Assembly (NCBI GenBank): GCA_024137785.1 | Contig: JAHRHZ010000155.1 | Location: 677,992-731,164, forward strand | Length of the DNA: 53,173 nucleotides | Direction of reading: 5' to 3' | Origin: Ginglymostoma cirratum | Lineage: Eukaryota | Shown: positions 15,001 through 36,000 of the stretch, in pieces | Layout of the letters: every line of letters starts with the position of its first letter | Numbering within the stretch: position 1 is the first letter of the stretch | Program-made: the position numbers

Positions 15001-18000
15001 ATCCAGCCTCAGTTTGTGATAACCCAGTGTCTGATTCTCAATAACCCGCTGATAGCTTCCAATTCAGTCCTGGAGAAAACTCTAATACTGACATGAATAT
15101 CAATGATCCAATGTATTGACTGTGCCCATCAATGTTGTCGGGTGATCCACTCTCCTGTATCTCTCTCATCGTGTTGAAAAATCTCAGAGACAAAAAAGAC
15201 TCACATTTCTGTAAAAATCAAAAAGAACTGCAGGTGTTGTGAATCAGAAACAAAAAACAGAATTTGCTAGAAAAGCTCAGCAGATCTGGCAGTACTTGTG
15301 AAGAGAAATCAGAATTAACACTTCAGGTCCAGTGACCCTTCCTTAGAACCTTTGTTTTTGTCTCATATTTCTGTAGTGCCTTTCACCGTCTCAGGATATT
15401 ACAAACAGCTTCACAAACAATGAAGCAATTCCACAAATAGAGTTGCTGCTGCCATGAGGGATTCACAGTCACCATATAAGACAAACTCCAAAAAAAACAG
15501 GATTGTCATCAAAAATCTGATCACATATTTCATTGTTCTGGCTGAGATTATTACCAATCGTTGCTGTCCTGTTGCAGGCAGGATTTAATTGGAATTTGGC
15601 AGATTTCAGAGAAAGTGAGGAGCCAGTCCTCCCTGGGCTCTGAGCTGCTCCCCCTCCTGCACCCAGCATTGTCCAATCACAGGTGGTGGAGTGAAAGTGT
15701 GTTAAACGGAGTGACATAAACTTCACCAAGTCAGAAAAGAGGAAAGTCTTTACTGATCATTGTACTCGGTTCGAATATCATCCTGGTGAAAGTGTCTTCT
15801 CTTGTGAGATGGTTACTTCTATTTTAACAGCCACTTTACATTATATGTATCTAAAAGGATCCATTCTCTGTGTGTTAGATTTCACAGATAAGCCCACGAT
15901 AGCCTCTGTGGAAATTATCGCAGGAAAGCGTGTGAGCCTAAGATGCACCTTCAACACAACGTGTACTGGAACCTCTCCTGCCTTAACATGGGTCACTCCC
16001 ACTGCCGTACGTGGATCAGTCTCAAACACTGTAACTCAGCATGGTGTCACTCTGACCTATACTTCTGTTCTGACCCTGACACCATCACTCAGACACCAGG
16101 GACAAACTCTCACCTGTAGAGTGAGTTATCCAACTGTTTCTTCAAAGCAGACCCTCGTACTAACAGTGCAATGTAAGTATCAACATCCTTCATTCGACAT
16201 TAGGCGCAACAGTTTACAATGTGCTCAGGAAGATCTGACGAATAATGGAAATAGAACTGTGCAATTAAATACTGTCTGACAGTGCTGCACTCCCTCGGCA
16301 CTGAACCTCTGATAGTGCGGCGCACCCTCAGTCCTGACCCTCTGACAGTGTGTCATTATCTCAGTGCTGAACTGTTGGTCCTAATGACCTTTCTCTTAAC
16401 AAAGAAGGTGCATCGATATCACTCCTTTCACATTCTAACAGCCTTTCAATGCTTCACATTCAGTGAAAGTGAATCTGTTTTATTTGCTTTTAGATCCACC
16501 ACGGAATCTCGCAATTACTTCTCTTTCTGTGATTAAAGATTCATCGATTAATATAATTGAGGGGAATTCTGCAGTGATAATCTGCTCTGTTCAGAGCATC
16601 CCAGATTCTAACCTGATGTGGAGACATTTTAATGTCATAATGAACAGAACAAGTTCCAACAATGAGCTGTGGTTAGAGATTCGTCACATTACGTCCAGGG
16701 AGGCAGGAGACTATCAGTGTCGGGCAGAGAATGAACATGGAGCAATGGTGGGCTCCATAACCATCAATGTGGAATGTAAGTCAATGTACATATGTTTCAA
16801 CTTTACTCACTGGCACACACACAGGACCTCATGTGCCCCAATCAGGCACATGCACAGGGAGATTGGAGACTATAAGTGTGTAGCAGAGAATGAACATGGA
16901 GCAGTGGAGGGCCTCATAACCATCAATGTAGAATGTGAGTGTACGCAGACTTCAACATTTCTCTCACATACACACACCAACACACGAGTACAGTCCTGCA
17001 GACACACACATGTGACATGTCCCCTCTCTCAGTATTGCACTGGAGCATCAGTATGAGCTTCAATTCTCTGCTGAACGAATGCAAATTCCAGATTAACCAG
17101 ATACTGTCTTGAACCAACAATCCCCTGCATACATGACGATGGATTTCTTTGTTGGATCCATTTATACTGTGTAAGCGCTGGTGAACATTGTAACATTTAG
17201 GGAAAAAGAATTTCAATGCTTGCTGCCTGGAAGGAAGCAAGATAAACATTGTGCTGCTCAGAAGGTTTCTGTAGCAGCCTGATTGCCTCTGTTTGGAGCA
17301 TGGGATGAATCCTAAGAGCATTTTTATAGCGCCATGTAATCAGGAGTCAGGAGATGTTCTAGGAGCCAGTGAGTGCAGCCAAGTGGTATAGGTAAAGCTC
17401 ATTAAATGCTTAGAGTCATAGAATCAAAGAGCTGTACAGCACAGAAACAGACCCTTTGTTCCAAACCGTCCATGACGACCAGATATCCTAAATTAATCTA
17501 GTCCCACTTGCCAGCATTTGGCCCATATTGATCTAAACCCTTCCTATTCACAAACCAATCTAGGTGCTTCTTAAATGTTGTAACTGTACCCGCCTCCACC
17601 ACTTCCTCTGGCACCTCTTGCCATACACGCACCACCATCTGTGTGAAAAGGTTGCCCGTTAGGTCCCTTTTAAATCTTTCCCCTCCCACATTAAACATAA
17701 GCCCCTGAGTTTTCAACTCACCCACCCTGGGGAAAACATCTTGACTATTCACCCTATCCATTCTCTTCATGACTTTACAAATGTCAGTCAGGTCACCCTT
17801 AAGCCTCCAATGCTCCAGGGAAAATAACCCCAGCCTGTGCAGCATCTCCGTGTAGCTCCGACTCTCCTACCCTGGGAACAGCCTTGTAAACCCTTTCTGA
17901 ACACATTCAAGTTTCACAACATCCTTCCTTTCGCACGGAGACCAGAACTGAACGCTGTATTCCACAATTGGCCTAACCAATGTCCTCGACAGTGACAGCA

Positions 18001-33000: not shown

Positions 33001-36000
33001 TCTCCTTTAAAAGAAAATTTCCTGATCCCTCACTAGATGCTAACCTGGTGATCTGCTCTGGGATCATAACATATCCCCCAATGTTCCATTGATCAAATTC
33101 AATTCATTGCCGCTAAGGCTTTGAGAATATTGAGGATGTGAAAGGAACTTTCTTTCAGAATGGACAGCTCCCTACAGTGTGACAGTTACATAGGCAATAT
33201 CTGTCAGAAGCGTAGTGCAGCAACTACCATGGACAGATAGTTATGAGGAATCCACATAGCGCATTCAGAGAGATGGATATGGAGTCTTGCTATGAACCGT
33301 GTTTGCTCACAATATTCTCTTCCTCCATTTGCAGACCCACCACGGAATCTCGCAATTACTTCTTTTGCTGTGATTGAAGATTCATCGATCAATGTAATTG
33401 AGGGGAATTCTCCTGTGATAATGTGCTCTGTTGAGAGTTTCCCAGCTTCTAAACTGACATGGAGACATCTTGATGTCACAATGAACAGAACAAGTTCCAA
33501 CAATGAGGTGTGGTTGGAGATTCCTCACATTACATCCAAGGAGACTGGAGTCTATCAGTGTGTGGCAGAGAATGAACACGGATCAATGGAGAGTTCCATA
33601 ATCGTCGCTGTGCAATGTGAGACTACCATTACATTTGTTCATTGTTACATCTTCAGAGAAGCCATTGGCATTGTCTTGTTTCTTCAAGCCTCCCTCATTC
33701 CACTGCTCCGATGTTATCTATGATCTGATTTTTCTTTATTCTTTTCTGTTTACTGCATATTTCTCCTACAATTGTTGCTGAGACAAAGATGGTTCTTCAC
33801 TAAGTCCTTACCTGTCTATCTCAATCTAACTGGACCTAACACACTCTTGACTCCTATACTTCCATTCTCTTTATCTAAGCCCTTGACTTGTCTTGTTCTG
33901 CATCCAGCTGAATCCGACCACCCTTGGGCACACCCACATTTCAAAACCTGTTACCTTCCTCTCATCCACTTTCTTCAGGGTCTGACCCTCACATTCATTG
34001 AGTATGACCCTCCACATTACCCTGCACCCAACGTTTTCTCAGTTTCAGGCTGTTTTCAGATATTTAGATTGAAGTCACTGGTCACAGTGCTTGCTGTTAT
34101 TTTTCTAAGCTAAATTAGAGTTCTGGATGTAATTTTAATATTTATTCTTGAGCCAAGTATTGGAATTTGTCCACTCTCCCCATCTCAGTACACCCAATCT
34201 TGATATCCTCATTGCCATTTACAGTCATTAGGTTGGCCGTTGCTGCATACATGTCGGCCATTGCTGCATTCACCACCAGTTCGAATGTCTCCCTGCGTTC
34301 TTGTCTGGGTCTATCATACACTCCAGCTCTTGCTTTGTTCTGTTTGTGTGTGTAGTGCCGTCTGCACACCAGTGATTCCACAGCCGTATCCCTACAAACA
34401 AATTTATATCCCAAGAGACTCTGAGATTTACATTATCTATGACAGGCATTAGGATGCTTGTAAACACAGACAAACATTTCCCAAACACTTTCCGCTTTTA
34501 AGACATTTTTAAGTTAAACCTTCTGTATGGTGCTTTCAGTCAGTAACCAAAGATCTCCTTATGTAGCTCAGGATAATGTTTTGCCAGAAGGAGGTGAAAA
34601 ATGAGGGAGGTAGTTCCAGAGATTCAGGCTTCACGCAATTGACTCAGGAAATACACAAGAGGCCGGAACTAGAAAAGTAGAGATCTTGGAGGGTGTGGGG
34701 CACAGGGATTACCTGCTGATTCTTCTCTGCTCTTGTTCCAGATCCCCCACGGGAGACCAAAGCGTCCATCAGTGGAGCCTCAGGTGGGATCAGAGAGGGA
34801 AACAACGTCACATTAACCTGCTCCAGTGAAAGCGTCCCATCGATATCTCATTACACCTGGTTCAGGATCGAGGGAAACACCAGCACCTGTTTAAACACAA
34901 GCAGCCGGATTCTGTCTTTCACACCAGTAACGCGGAGGGATGATGCAGATTTCTATTGCACAGCGACAAACCCATTGGGTAACAGCAGCTCCAACACAAC
35001 CCACCTGAATGTGGAATGTAAGCAGTTTACTCTGTCTATCTCTTCTTAAAACTCAGGGGCTGTCTATCTGAGAGCAGCTTACACACTGCAGTTTAGAATA
35101 AAGAGCGTAACCTCCCCACTGCTGTAATCTGTCTCTCACTGAGACATACAGCATGATATCAGGATTGGTAATTAATAGCTTGGCTGCTAAGGAGCATCAT
35201 AAAGGAGAAGTGAGAGGGGCATGGACTATTAGGAAGGGAATATCAGAACTTTAGTTCCTCGGCAGGTTCTGGAAGATGCAGTCACAATGGATGGGCGATT
35301 GAAACTTGGCAAGGTTCAAGAGGTCATAATTGGAGGAGGGCAGAGATCTTGAAGGGTTGCAGGGGCCGGCAGAAGTTACAGAGAAAAAAAAGTGGGTAGG
35401 GAAAGATTTGAAAACAAGGATGGGAATTATAAACTGGTGTTTCCAGACTGAGCAACAATGTTGTTCAGCTAAAGACAGAGTGCAACTATTAATTCCAGAG
35501 TGGTGCAACTTAAGACATAGGCAGTAGAGTTTTCGATGAGCTGAAGTTTACAGAGTGTGGGAGATGGGAGAGCGTTTAGAAATGAATTTGGAGTCGAGCA
35601 AGACACTGAAGGCGATTTTGGCGTAAATATCATAACTGTACTATATTTGGCTAATTGTTATCGTTCGCTTCTCAGATGGTCCAGAGATTTCCTGGGAGTC
35701 GGAATGTACTCGGAGGTCAGAGGGGATCACCTGCGTCTGTGTGGCCAACTCCAACCCTCCTGGAGACCTCACCTGGCACCTGCTCCATGCCAACCTCAGC
35801 GGTAACCAAACACACGGAGGCTTTGTGTCACAGCAGCTCAGAGCTGGGCATCAGGTGATGGGTTTCCTGATCCTGATGGCACACCAGGATGAAGATGAAG
35901 TGATGGGATCATGCTCGGTTCGAAATCCGCATGGTGCAGCCACGTTCAAGGTGCATCTTTGGGTCAAAGGTGAGCAGATTGACTCTGGATCGATCTTGGC

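What the first reader, a model, noticed from the sequence alone, without database searches (positions are those of the whole stretch)
16494..33616. Receptor stalk extended by tandem duplication of one 282-nt symmetrical Ig exon (5 copies)
Five phase 1-1 exons of identical length, all with open frames and intact splice sites, sit in duplicated exon-plus-intron units (spacings 2333, 4958, 4939, 4611 nt) whose introns have accumulated indels. Inference: an accordion-like stalk that sets how far the lectin domain reaches beyond the glycocalyx (cis versus trans binding). Any subset of exons can be skipped in frame, and copy number could vary between individuals.
Basis: partly seen in the sequence, partly recalled or inferred. 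Interest (0 to 1): 0.72.

Follow-up and report, generated by a model that had tools for sequence, protein, structure and literature searches.

The report
Five-copy Ig exon array, shark Siglec
A shark sialic-acid-binding receptor (Siglec) gene carries five old tandem copies of one antibody-like domain exon in the middle of its outer part, an ordinary way for such receptors to grow longer, and related sharks carry from one to ten copies.

Summary
Five 282-nt exons lie on the + strand at 16494, 18827, 23785, 28724 and 33335. All have AG/GT borders, are open only in phase 1, and give Pfam Ig_3/I-set hits. They sit in duplicated exon-plus-intron units.

They form the middle of a 13-exon Siglec-family gene (7733-43391): signal peptide, V-set lectin domain with the key arginine, a C2-set domain, the five repeats, two more Ig domains, a membrane span and a tail with an ITIM-like motif.

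The copies differ by 8.5-15.6% in the exons, so this is not an assembly expansion. The whale-shark orthologue has six such domains. R2, R3 and R5 each match one whale-shark domain at 92%, above the 85% maximum between window copies. Most duplications are therefore older than that species split.

Across elasmobranch relatives the same module occurs 1 to 10 times. Annotated isoforms in two other sharks differ by exactly one 94-residue module.

Tandem duplication, a lectin receptor and in-frame skippability are supported. The stalk-length (cis versus trans) function is a reasonable analogy to Siglec-1 but untested. Variation between individuals could not be checked. This is a new member of a known kind, of modest interest.

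The parts
7733..7772 (+). Signal-peptide exon (ATG at 7733, donor GT at 7773)
   Evidence: A pattern back-translated from the orthologue's N-terminus gives 1 match with 0 mismatches. Sequence read. It encodes MIRKSYFLLLLLQ, as in P0005.
13026..13391 (+). V-set (lectin) exon, 366 nt, phase 1-1, with YYFRVE arginine and three Cys
   Evidence: Pfam V-set E 2e-10 and Ig_CD22 E 4.3e-9. Best PDB match is sialoadhesin at E 1e-12, with R aligned to R97 and W to W2. 91% identical to P0005.
15879..16172 (+). C2-set exon (domain 2), 294 nt
   Evidence: Pfam C2-set_2 E 1.7e-8. The acceptor at 15879 gives DFTDKP, as in P0005.
16494..16775 (+). Repeat exon R1 (most divergent copy)
   Evidence: Best whale-shark match is D1 at 82%. 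It carries replacements at positions invariant in R2-R5.
16855..16934 (+). Partial copy (last 80 nt) of a repeat exon, with its own GTGAG donor, in frame with R1
   Evidence: blastn gives 89% to the R3 3' end. Alignment A3. The frame stays open across 16775-16963. 26 of 27 residues equal P0005 301-327.
18827..19108 (+). Repeat exon R2
   Evidence: 92% to whale-shark D2.
23785..24066 (+). Repeat exon R3
   Evidence: 92% to whale-shark D3.
28724..29005 (+). Repeat exon R4
   Evidence: 89% to D3 and 87% to D5, so the counterpart is ambiguous.
33335..33616 (+). Repeat exon R5
   Evidence: 92% to whale-shark D6, 77% or less to the others.
18559..29021 (+). Two full ~4.95-kb duplicated units (exon plus intron), collinear throughout
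   Evidence: Self-blastn: 18559-24082 against 23516-29021, 82.1% over 5631 columns. 12 ungapped intron blocks at 81-90% (D2, D3, D5-D7, D10-D12, D14-D17). Intron alignment.
30167..32683 (.). Inverted repeat inside the intron after R4 (arms 30167-31281 and 31554-32683), probably a mobile-element insertion
   Evidence: Self-blastn, 77% over 1171 columns, inverted. The only family hit is a sub-threshold GIY-YIG match, E 0.0038, 17.9 bits against a cut-off of 22.6.
34742..35017 (+). Ig exon after the array, 276 nt, phase 1-1
   Evidence: Pfam Ig_3 E 1.7e-11. 28-32% identical to the repeat exons.
35676..35969 (+). Membrane-proximal Ig-like exon, 294 nt
   Evidence: Boundaries. Weak C2-set_2 hit, E 0.0036, below the cut-off. 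Matches P0005 GPEISWESE....
40934..41030 (+). Transmembrane exon
   Evidence: ORF with WTVGLVITGTVFSIFLAGILIL. Splice sites read. Matches P0005.
41342..41423 (+). Cytoplasmic exon with ITIM-like LTYSQL
   Evidence: Same motif in P0005.
43116..43391 (+). Last coding exon. The distal ITIM (43259-43285) and TEYAEI lie in the +2 frame (open 43208-43366)
   Evidence: The same shifted tail is seen in P0005 and P0003, while paralogues P0012 and P0029 read the ITIM frame.

Best explanation
The region is the middle of a shark Siglec-family receptor gene (13 coding exons, 7733-43391, + strand). Unequal crossing-over of whole exon-plus-intron units multiplied one 282-nt phase-1/phase-1 exon, which encodes a 94-residue Ig domain. 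The resulting five modules sit between the sialic-acid-binding head (V-set plus C2-set) and two membrane-proximal Ig domains, giving nine Ig domains in all.

Most of the duplications happened before this species split from the whale-shark lineage. Since then the units have diverged by substitutions, indels, a mobile-element insertion and a small partial duplication. Selection has kept the fold residues while tolerating many surface changes.

Inferred function: the modules act as spacer domains that lengthen the stalk and so set how far the lectin head projects. Because they are symmetrical, they can be gained, lost or skipped without breaking the frame.

Shown: the array, the gene, its age, copy-number differences between species and paralogues, and one-module isoform models in relatives. 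Inferred: the spacer role, and inclusion of all five exons in this gene's mRNA.
For: Array and splice anatomy.

Whole-unit duplication.

Siglec identity: V-set closest to sialoadhesin at E 1e-12, with R97 and W2 aligned and the three-Cys pattern; Pfam V-set, Ig_CD22 and C2-set_2; transmembrane exon and LTYSQL.

Not an artefact: exon pairs are 84.4-91.5% identical.

Selection: over 10 of 10 pairs, dS is 0.15-0.27 and dN 0.07-0.15, giving dN/dS 0.40-1.00. Cys30, Trp42 and Cys75 are invariant.

Age: R2-D2, R3-D3 and R5-D6 are each 92%, and R1-D1 is 82%, against the whale-shark orthologue P0005. Within the window the maxima are 85% and 79%. Orthology is supported by 91% identity in the V exon.

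Copy number by tool count: P0005 has 6, P0003 has 8, P0001 has 10. S. torazame X1 has 5 and X2/X3 have 4. Cetorhinus has 2 and 1. By reading the sequences: P0002 has 10, P0004 has 8, P0012 has 4, P0020 has 3, P0026 and P0029 have 2.

One-module isoforms.

Functional precedent: in Siglec-1, forms with 4 or fewer Ig domains do not bind red cells, and length is about 33 nm against about 14 nm (PMC10027830, abstract).
Against: No transcript, protein or binding data exist for this gene. Inclusion of all five exons rests on the whale-shark annotation model, whose transcript support I could not see.

dN/dS reaches 1.0 for R1-R5 and 0.8 for R2-R5.

R1 has replacements at otherwise invariant positions and is followed by a second in-frame donor, so R1 may be decaying or mis-spliced.

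The copies are old and positionally conserved, which argues against rapid copy-number change in this gene.

The spacer role is an analogy with a mammalian Siglec that is not an orthologue. The distal ITIMs of this gene are out of frame, so its signalling, and hence how it works as a receptor, is uncertain.
Confidence: 0.7

Rival explanations
1. The array is a neutral by-product of unequal crossing-over between similar units. The number of modules drifts and has no length-dependent function.
For: dN/dS is 0.40-1.00. Copy number varies widely among paralogues and orthologues with no visible rule. Blocks of sites support mutually incompatible groupings of the copies: R1+R5 at 4 sites, R1+R2 at 3, R2+R3 at 5, R3+R4 at 2, read. 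This suggests ongoing sequence exchange between copies.
Against: 5 of 5 exons keep an open frame, splice sites, both Cys and the Trp, although their intron alignment shows many indels. dN is below dS in 9 of 10 pairs. Four of five modules have kept one-to-one counterparts in whale shark.
Confidence: 0.2
2. The repeated domains are extra binding or self-association surfaces, for a protein ligand or for cis-clustering, rather than a passive spacer.
For: By sequence, the closest solved domains include adhesion molecules and Fc-receptor-like proteins: FCRL5, DSCAM, contactins and MAG domain 3. Several surface positions differ between copies.
Against: No conserved surface patch could be assessed, because the structure model was unusable (pLDDT 47). 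In lineages such as Heptranchias the copies are almost identical (by reading), which fits a generic module better than a set of distinct binding sites.
Confidence: 0.12
3. Not all five exons are used. R1 in particular is a decaying or mis-spliced exon, so the mature receptor has fewer modules than the genome suggests.
For: R1 is the most divergent copy: 71-79% amino-acid identity to the others (66-73 of 93) and only 82% to its whale-shark counterpart, against 92% for R2, R3 and R5. It has SIPDS where the others have SFPAS, and three other replacements at otherwise conserved positions. 159 nt downstream lies a second in-frame GTGAG donor after an 80-nt exon-end copy. Its 26 residues equal the whale-shark D1 end, whereas R1's own end differs at 6 of 26.
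Against: R1 keeps an open frame, AG and GTAAGT sites, both Cys and the Trp. Zero changes in 26 residues is not unexpected at 92% identity.
Confidence: 0.25
4. The five units are an assembly expansion, for example haplotypes or a collapsed repeat placed in tandem.
For: None found. The region is repetitive, which is where assemblers make errors.
Against: The copies differ at 8.5-15.6% of exon positions and about 14-18% of intron positions, with many indels. That is far more than haplotypes differ. An independent assembly of another species encodes matching separate domains in the same order.
Confidence: 0.02

Closest known systems
Rhincodon typus 'B-cell receptor CD22-like' (P0005, NCBI model, 1138 aa) and Stegostoma tigrinum 'hemicentin-1-like' (P0003, 1463 aa)
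   Same: Same domain order. The V exon is 91% and 88% identical. The repeat modules appear in the same order, with 92% counterparts for R2, R3 and R5. The frame-shifted tail is the same.
   Different: Whale shark has 6 modules; its D4 has no one-to-one counterpart here, the best match being 82%. Zebra shark has 8, of which the first five are nearly alike. Part of that model reads into intron-like sequence.
Mammalian sialoadhesin (Siglec-1/CD169)
   Same: A V-set lectin head with the essential arginine, and the best sequence match among solved structures. A long chain of Ig domains shown by experiment to be needed to escape cis-inhibition (PMC10027830, abstract).
   Different: 17 Ig domains against 9 here. 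The tail here has an ITIM-like motif. That Siglec-1 has no such motif, and that its domains are not near-identical copies of one exon, is recalled and comes from no call. This gene is not an orthologue: it belongs to a large elasmobranch-only group in my search, where 108 of 108 hits were sharks, rays or skates.
CD22 (Siglec-2) and CD33-related Siglecs such as Siglec-10
   Same: Type I receptors built as V-set, then C2-type Ig domains, then a membrane span and tyrosine motifs. Paralogues in the family carry LLYANINF and TEYAQI motifs. NCBI names many relatives Siglec-10, Siglec-13 or CD22-like.
   Different: The V-set match to solved CD22 is weak (E 0.003-0.006). CD22 has 7 distinct Ig domains (recalled), not a homogeneous repeated module. 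In this gene the distal ITIMs are out of frame.
Length variation by repeated-module duplication in other surface receptors (complement receptor 1 long homologous repeats; selectin consensus repeats).
   Same: Tandem duplication of symmetrical domain exons changes the length of the ectodomain without breaking the frame.
   Different: The modules there are CCP/sushi domains, not Ig, and the ligand systems differ. Whether this locus is polymorphic within a species, as CR1 is in humans, is unknown.

Membership tests
Siglec (sialic-acid-binding Ig-like lectin) family | N-terminal V-set Ig domain | tested here: met
   Pfam V-set E 2e-10 (41.3 bits, cut-off 26) and Ig_CD22 E 4.3e-9. The 18 best PDB hits are all Siglecs.
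Siglec (sialic-acid-binding Ig-like lectin) family | Essential arginine on the F strand (sialoadhesin R97) that binds the sialic-acid carboxylate | tested here: met
   YYFRVE aligns with YNFRFE of sialoadhesin, residue 101 of the exon peptide with R97. W at position 6 aligns with W2 (alignment). The role of these residues is established knowledge, not tested here.
Siglec (sialic-acid-binding Ig-like lectin) family | Three-cysteine pattern in the V-set domain (intrasheet disulphide plus a Cys for the link to domain 2) | tested here: met
   C..IPC and DC align with the sialoadhesin C..IPC and VC columns. The disulphide pairing itself is inferred.
Siglec (sialic-acid-binding Ig-like lectin) family | C2-type Ig domains, a single membrane span and a cytoplasmic tyrosine motif | tested here: met
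   C2-set_2. Five repeat Ig exons. Transmembrane exon and LTYSQL. The distal ITIM is present but out of frame.
Siglec (sialic-acid-binding Ig-like lectin) family | Binds sialylated glycans | not testable with these tools
   Needs a glycan array or a cell-binding assay.
Siglec-1 / sialoadhesin orthologue | 17 Ig domains and no tyrosine-based signalling motif | tested here: not met
   9 Ig exons and an ITIM-like motif. The 17 domains of Siglec-1 are from PMC10027830 (abstract); its lack of a motif is recalled.
CD22 orthologue | CD22-type V-set domain and seven distinct Ig domains | tested here: not met
   Solved CD22 chains match the V exon only at E 0.003-0.006, far below other Siglecs. The middle of the ectodomain is one repeated module.
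Tandem exon-duplication array (segmental exon-plus-intron units) | Copies share flanking intron sequence in the same order, have the same length and phase, and lie head to tail | tested here: met
   The units after R2 and R3 are collinear over about 4.95 kb. The units after R1 and R4 share only parts.

The most novel reading that the evidence does not exclude
In elasmobranchs one Ig exon cassette serves as a general length module for a whole expanded Siglec family. It is multiplied or lost by unequal crossing-over (1 to 10 copies among paralogues and orthologues, in some lineages nearly identical copies). It is also dropped one at a time by splicing. Sharks would thus make a graded series of lectin receptors with the same head at different heights above the membrane: a natural length series for tuning cis versus trans sialic-acid recognition.
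Probability: 0.25. Interest if true: 0.55.

Novelty: new member of a known kind. Interest (0 to 1): 0.33.

Why it matters
Ig-domain exon duplication is the textbook way in which immune receptors lengthen, and stalk length is known to matter for Siglec-1. This locus adds a clean, datable example in a cartilaginous fish. It shows an elasmobranch Siglec family in which one module occurs 1 to 10 times and is dropped singly in annotated isoforms. If the length series is functional, it offers a natural test bed for how receptor height governs cis versus trans glycan recognition. I found no paper on it in the held library, though the genes are already in public annotation under inconsistent automatic names.

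Tried and rejected
- Assembly artefact: rejected because the copies are too divergent and match another species' separate domains.
- R4 as a chimera left by a deletion of the whale-shark D4 unit: considered. R4 matches D3 at 89% and D5 at 87%. The pattern is equally explained by R2/R3 sharing derived changes, so it is left open.
- Structure of one module: AlphaFold2 with a 6-row alignment gave pLDDT 47 and pTM 0.37. This is unusable, so no fold search was run.
- Naming the intron repeats: 7 ORFs were scanned against Pfam. 5 gave nothing and 2 gave sub-threshold hits (GIY-YIG 17.9 bits, RVT_1 21.7 bits).
- Cluster members (isoform lengths of the relatives): the query could not be made because the database was off.
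- Scripts: the script machine was lost. A domain tree, a formal recombination test and exact gap-free intron identities were therefore not computed. The site patterns were read by eye.
- Rescue of the distal ITIM frame by another acceptor, or by skipping the 82-nt exon: checked by eye. No AG lies in the right register.
- Literature: no paper on shark Siglec domain arrays was found. The whale-shark genome paper only lists Siglecs among Ig families (one passage). Its supplementary tables could not be seen and may list these genes.
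Full report
**1. The observation**

The five exons are at 16494-16775, 18827-19108, 23785-24066, 28724-29005 and 33335-33616 on the + strand.
- Each of the 5 is preceded by a pyrimidine tract and AG, and followed by GTAAGT (R1), GTGAGT (R2-R4) or GTGAGA (R5).
- In each, only one of six frames is open. This is the frame that starts at the third base (phase 1 at both ends), giving 93 codons plus a split codon.
- 5 of 5 translations pass the Pfam cut-offs for Ig_3 (E 1.5e-12 to 4.7e-10) and I-set.
- tblastn with each peptide finds these five places and no sixth full copy. 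The following Ig exon matches at only 28-32%.

**2. The duplicated units**

Self-comparison shows that 18559-24082 and 23516-29021 align from end to end, at 82.1% over 5631 columns with gaps counted. The units that start with R2 and R3 are therefore complete copies of about 4.95 kb.
- Twelve ungapped intron blocks between them are 81-90% identical.
- An alignment of the first halves of the two introns shows many indels of 1-26 nt.
- From, at least 84% of aligned bases are identical (about 4625 matches over at most 5506 aligned bases). The two flanking exon pairs are 91.5% and 90.8% identical.

The unit after R1 is short (2333 nt) but keeps collinear pieces of the longer unit: 16961-17074, 17418-18537 and 18558-18826, at 73-84% identity.

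The intron after R4 shares only its two ends with the others. Its middle holds an inverted repeat (30167-31281 and 32683-31554, 77%) that looks like a mobile-element insertion, though the only family hit is below threshold.

Some similarity between introns may come from interspersed repeats, which also occur outside the array at 64-72% (14033-14324, 36174-36797). The collinear order argues for common descent.

**3. Not an artefact**

Exon pairs differ at 8.5-15.6% of positions (10 pairs). The introns differ more, with indels. Haplotype or assembler duplicates would be nearly identical. An independent assembly of another species also encodes matching separate domains in the same order (section 6).

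**4. The gene**

I searched the model exon by exon. Whole-protein comparisons used annotated proteins of other sharks as stand-ins.

The exons on the + strand are:

| Exon | Coordinates | Evidence |
|---|---|---|
| Signal peptide | 7733-7772 | |
| V-set | 13026-13391 | |
| C2-set | 15879-16172 | |
| R1-R5 | as in section 1 | |
| Ig | 34742-35017 | |
| Ig-like | 35676-35969 | |
| Transmembrane | 40934-41030 | |
| Cytoplasmic, with LTYSQL | 41342-41423 | |
| Last exon | 43116-43391 | |

The V-set exon's best matches among solved structures are sialoadhesin (E 1e-12), Siglec-8, MAG, Siglec-10, Siglec-5, Siglec-7, Siglec-15 and CD33. CD22 matches only at E 0.003-0.006. In the printed alignment the arginine of YYFRVE falls on sialoadhesin R97, the tryptophan near the start falls on W2, and the three cysteines fall on the Siglec pattern.

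It has nine Ig domains, and the five repeats lie between the two-domain head and two membrane-proximal domains.

**5. Selection on the copies**

The Nei-Gojobori estimates over 10 pairs are dS 0.15-0.27, dN 0.07-0.15 and dN/dS 0.40-1.00. The lowest ratios are among R2, R3 and R4 (0.40-0.43) and the highest involve R5 and R1.
- dS is of the same order as the intron divergence. This fits exons and introns having been duplicated together.
- Both cysteines and the tryptophan are invariant in all five.
- This is the pattern of domains whose fold is kept while much of the surface is free to change.
- R1 is the outlier. It has SIPDS where the others have SFPAS, and replacements at three more positions that are conserved in R2-R5.

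Read by eye from the nucleotide alignment, blocks of sites support groupings that cannot all fit one tree:
- R1+R5 against the rest: 4 sites at the 5' end.
- R1+R2: 3 sites in the middle.
- R3+R4: 2 sites.
- R2+R3: 5 sites in the 3' third.

This suggests exchange between copies. No formal test could be run, because the script machine was lost.

**6. Relatives**

A search with the R3 peptide among longer proteins returned 108 hits at E up to 1e-5 among 189 candidates. All 108 carry names of sharks, rays or skates. The automatic names are inconsistent: sialoadhesin-like, CD22-like, Siglec-10, -12 and -13, MAG-like, hemicentin-like.

The whale-shark protein P0005 is the orthologue. Its V domain is 91% identical (107 of 117). 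The zebra-shark P0003 is 88% and the bamboo-shark P0001 is 74%.

P0005 has six repeat domains, D1 to D6. The best matches are:

| Window exon | Best whale-shark match |
|---|---|
| R1 | D1, 82% |
| R2 | D2, 92% |
| R3 | D3, 92% |
| R4 | D3, 89%, or D5, 87% |
| R5 | D6, 92% |

D4 has no counterpart above 82%.

Between window copies the highest amino-acid identity is 85%, and for R1 and R5 it is 79% and 76%. For R1, R2, R3 and R5 the cross-species match therefore exceeds any within-window match. Those duplications predate the species split.

By similarity it is a shark related to the whale and zebra sharks.

**7. Copy number and isoforms in the family**

Counts from tool alignments:
- 6 modules in P0005.
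- 8 in P0003.
- 10 in P0001.

Counts from reading the printed sequences:
- 10 nearly identical modules in Heptranchias P0002.
- 8 in catshark P0004.
- 4, 3, 2 and 2 in whale-shark paralogues P0012, P0020, P0026 and P0029.

Three annotated isoforms of one Scyliorhinus torazame gene have 1036, 942 and 942 residues. They differ only by one 94-residue module: X2 lacks the fifth and X3 lacks the fourth. The junction residue changes between H and Y, as expected for a split codon.

Two Cetorhinus isoforms (557 and 463 residues) are identical except for one 94-residue module.

These are annotation models. I could not see their transcript support, and the cluster look-up that might have listed more isoforms could not be made.

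In the window, the exon before R1 and all five R exons end in T, and R1-R5 and the following exon begin with AT or AC. Any skip would therefore leave a Tyr codon.

**8. How it most likely works**

Shown:
- An old tandem array of one symmetrical Ig exon in a Siglec gene.
- Conserved fold residues.
- Differences of one to several modules between orthologues and paralogues.
- One-module isoform models in relatives.

Inferred: the modules act as spacers that raise the lectin head. The only experimental support is from mouse Siglec-1. There, forms with 4 or fewer Ig domains failed to bind red cells. Full length reached about 33 nm, against about 14 nm for six domains. Co-expressed sialylated mucins inhibited binding according to their length (PMC10027830, abstract read). 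On that scale five modules would add roughly 10 nm, which is my own rough estimate.

The rivals are neutral drift in number, a binding role for the modules, and partial disuse, chiefly of R1. They are scored in their own sections.

**9.

(a) An 80-nt copy of an exon 3' end with its own GTGAG donor lies at 16855-16934, 159 nt after the matching part of R1.
- The frame stays open from R1 through it.
- Its 26 residues are identical to the end of whale-shark D1, whereas R1's own end differs at 6 of 26.
- The intron starts after R1 and after this copy resemble each other more than they resemble those after R2-R5. This points to a small local duplication.

(b) In the last exon, the distal ITIM (DLLYTNINF, 43259-43285) and the TEYAEI motif are in the +2 frame relative to the upstream part.
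- The frames part near 43221.
- The whale- and zebra-shark models have the same shifted tail, while paralogues read the ITIM frame.
- This orthologue group therefore seems to have lost its distal inhibitory motifs and kept only LTYSQL.

(c) The zebra-shark model contains stretches equal to the window's intron starts, probably retained intron in that annotation.

**10. Novelty and verdict**

Growth of Ig receptors by exon duplication, and the importance of Siglec stalk length, are known. The genes are already in public annotation. I found no paper describing shark Siglec domain arrays in the held library. One fish Siglec paper has no occurrence of 'shark' in its main text (passages only). The whale-shark genome paper names Siglecs once (one passage), and its supplements could not be seen.

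I rate this a new member of a known kind, with interest 0.33.

No contig here was taken for human.

Noticed in passing
16855-16934 (homology to 16958): An 80-nt copy of a repeat-exon 3' end with its own GTGAG donor lies 159 nt downstream of the matching part of R1 and in frame with it. Its 26 residues equal the end of whale-shark domain D1, while R1's own end differs at 6 of 26.
   Followed up: yes
43116-43391 (ITIM at 43259-43285; +2 frame open 43208-43366): The distal ITIM (DLLYTNINF) and the TEYAEI motif are out of frame with the upstream part of the last exon. The same shifted tail is in the whale- and zebra-shark models, while paralogues read the ITIM frame.
   Followed up: partly
30167-31281 and 31554-32683: An inverted repeat (77% over 1171 columns) fills most of the intron after R4, with long ORFs on both strands. 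The only family hit is a sub-threshold GIY-YIG match. It is probably a mobile element.
   Followed up: partly
14033-14324, 17448-17695, 22076-22348, 26961-27252; also 22143-22737, 27047-27674, 36174-36797: Copies of interspersed repeats at 64-72% identity lie inside and outside the array. Part of the similarity between introns could therefore come from shared elements rather than from the duplication.
   Followed up: no
P0003 (Stegostoma model), residues about 421-470, 659-681, 869-935: The annotated zebra-shark protein has stretches between repeat domains that match the window's intron starts (for example NVECECTQTST). This is probably retained intron in that gene model.
   Followed up: partly
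16494-16775 (R1): R1 has replacements at positions that are conserved in R2-R5: SIPDS for SFPAS, R for P/T at 63, R for V/M at 76 and V for E at 85. It is the least conserved against whale shark, at 82% versus 92%.
   Followed up: partly
44478-45238 (+) and 45949-46374: Downstream of the gene lie two overlapping open frames of 120 and 170 codons of unknown nature, followed by a low-complexity stretch that reads as runs of S/L or E/R.
   Followed up: no
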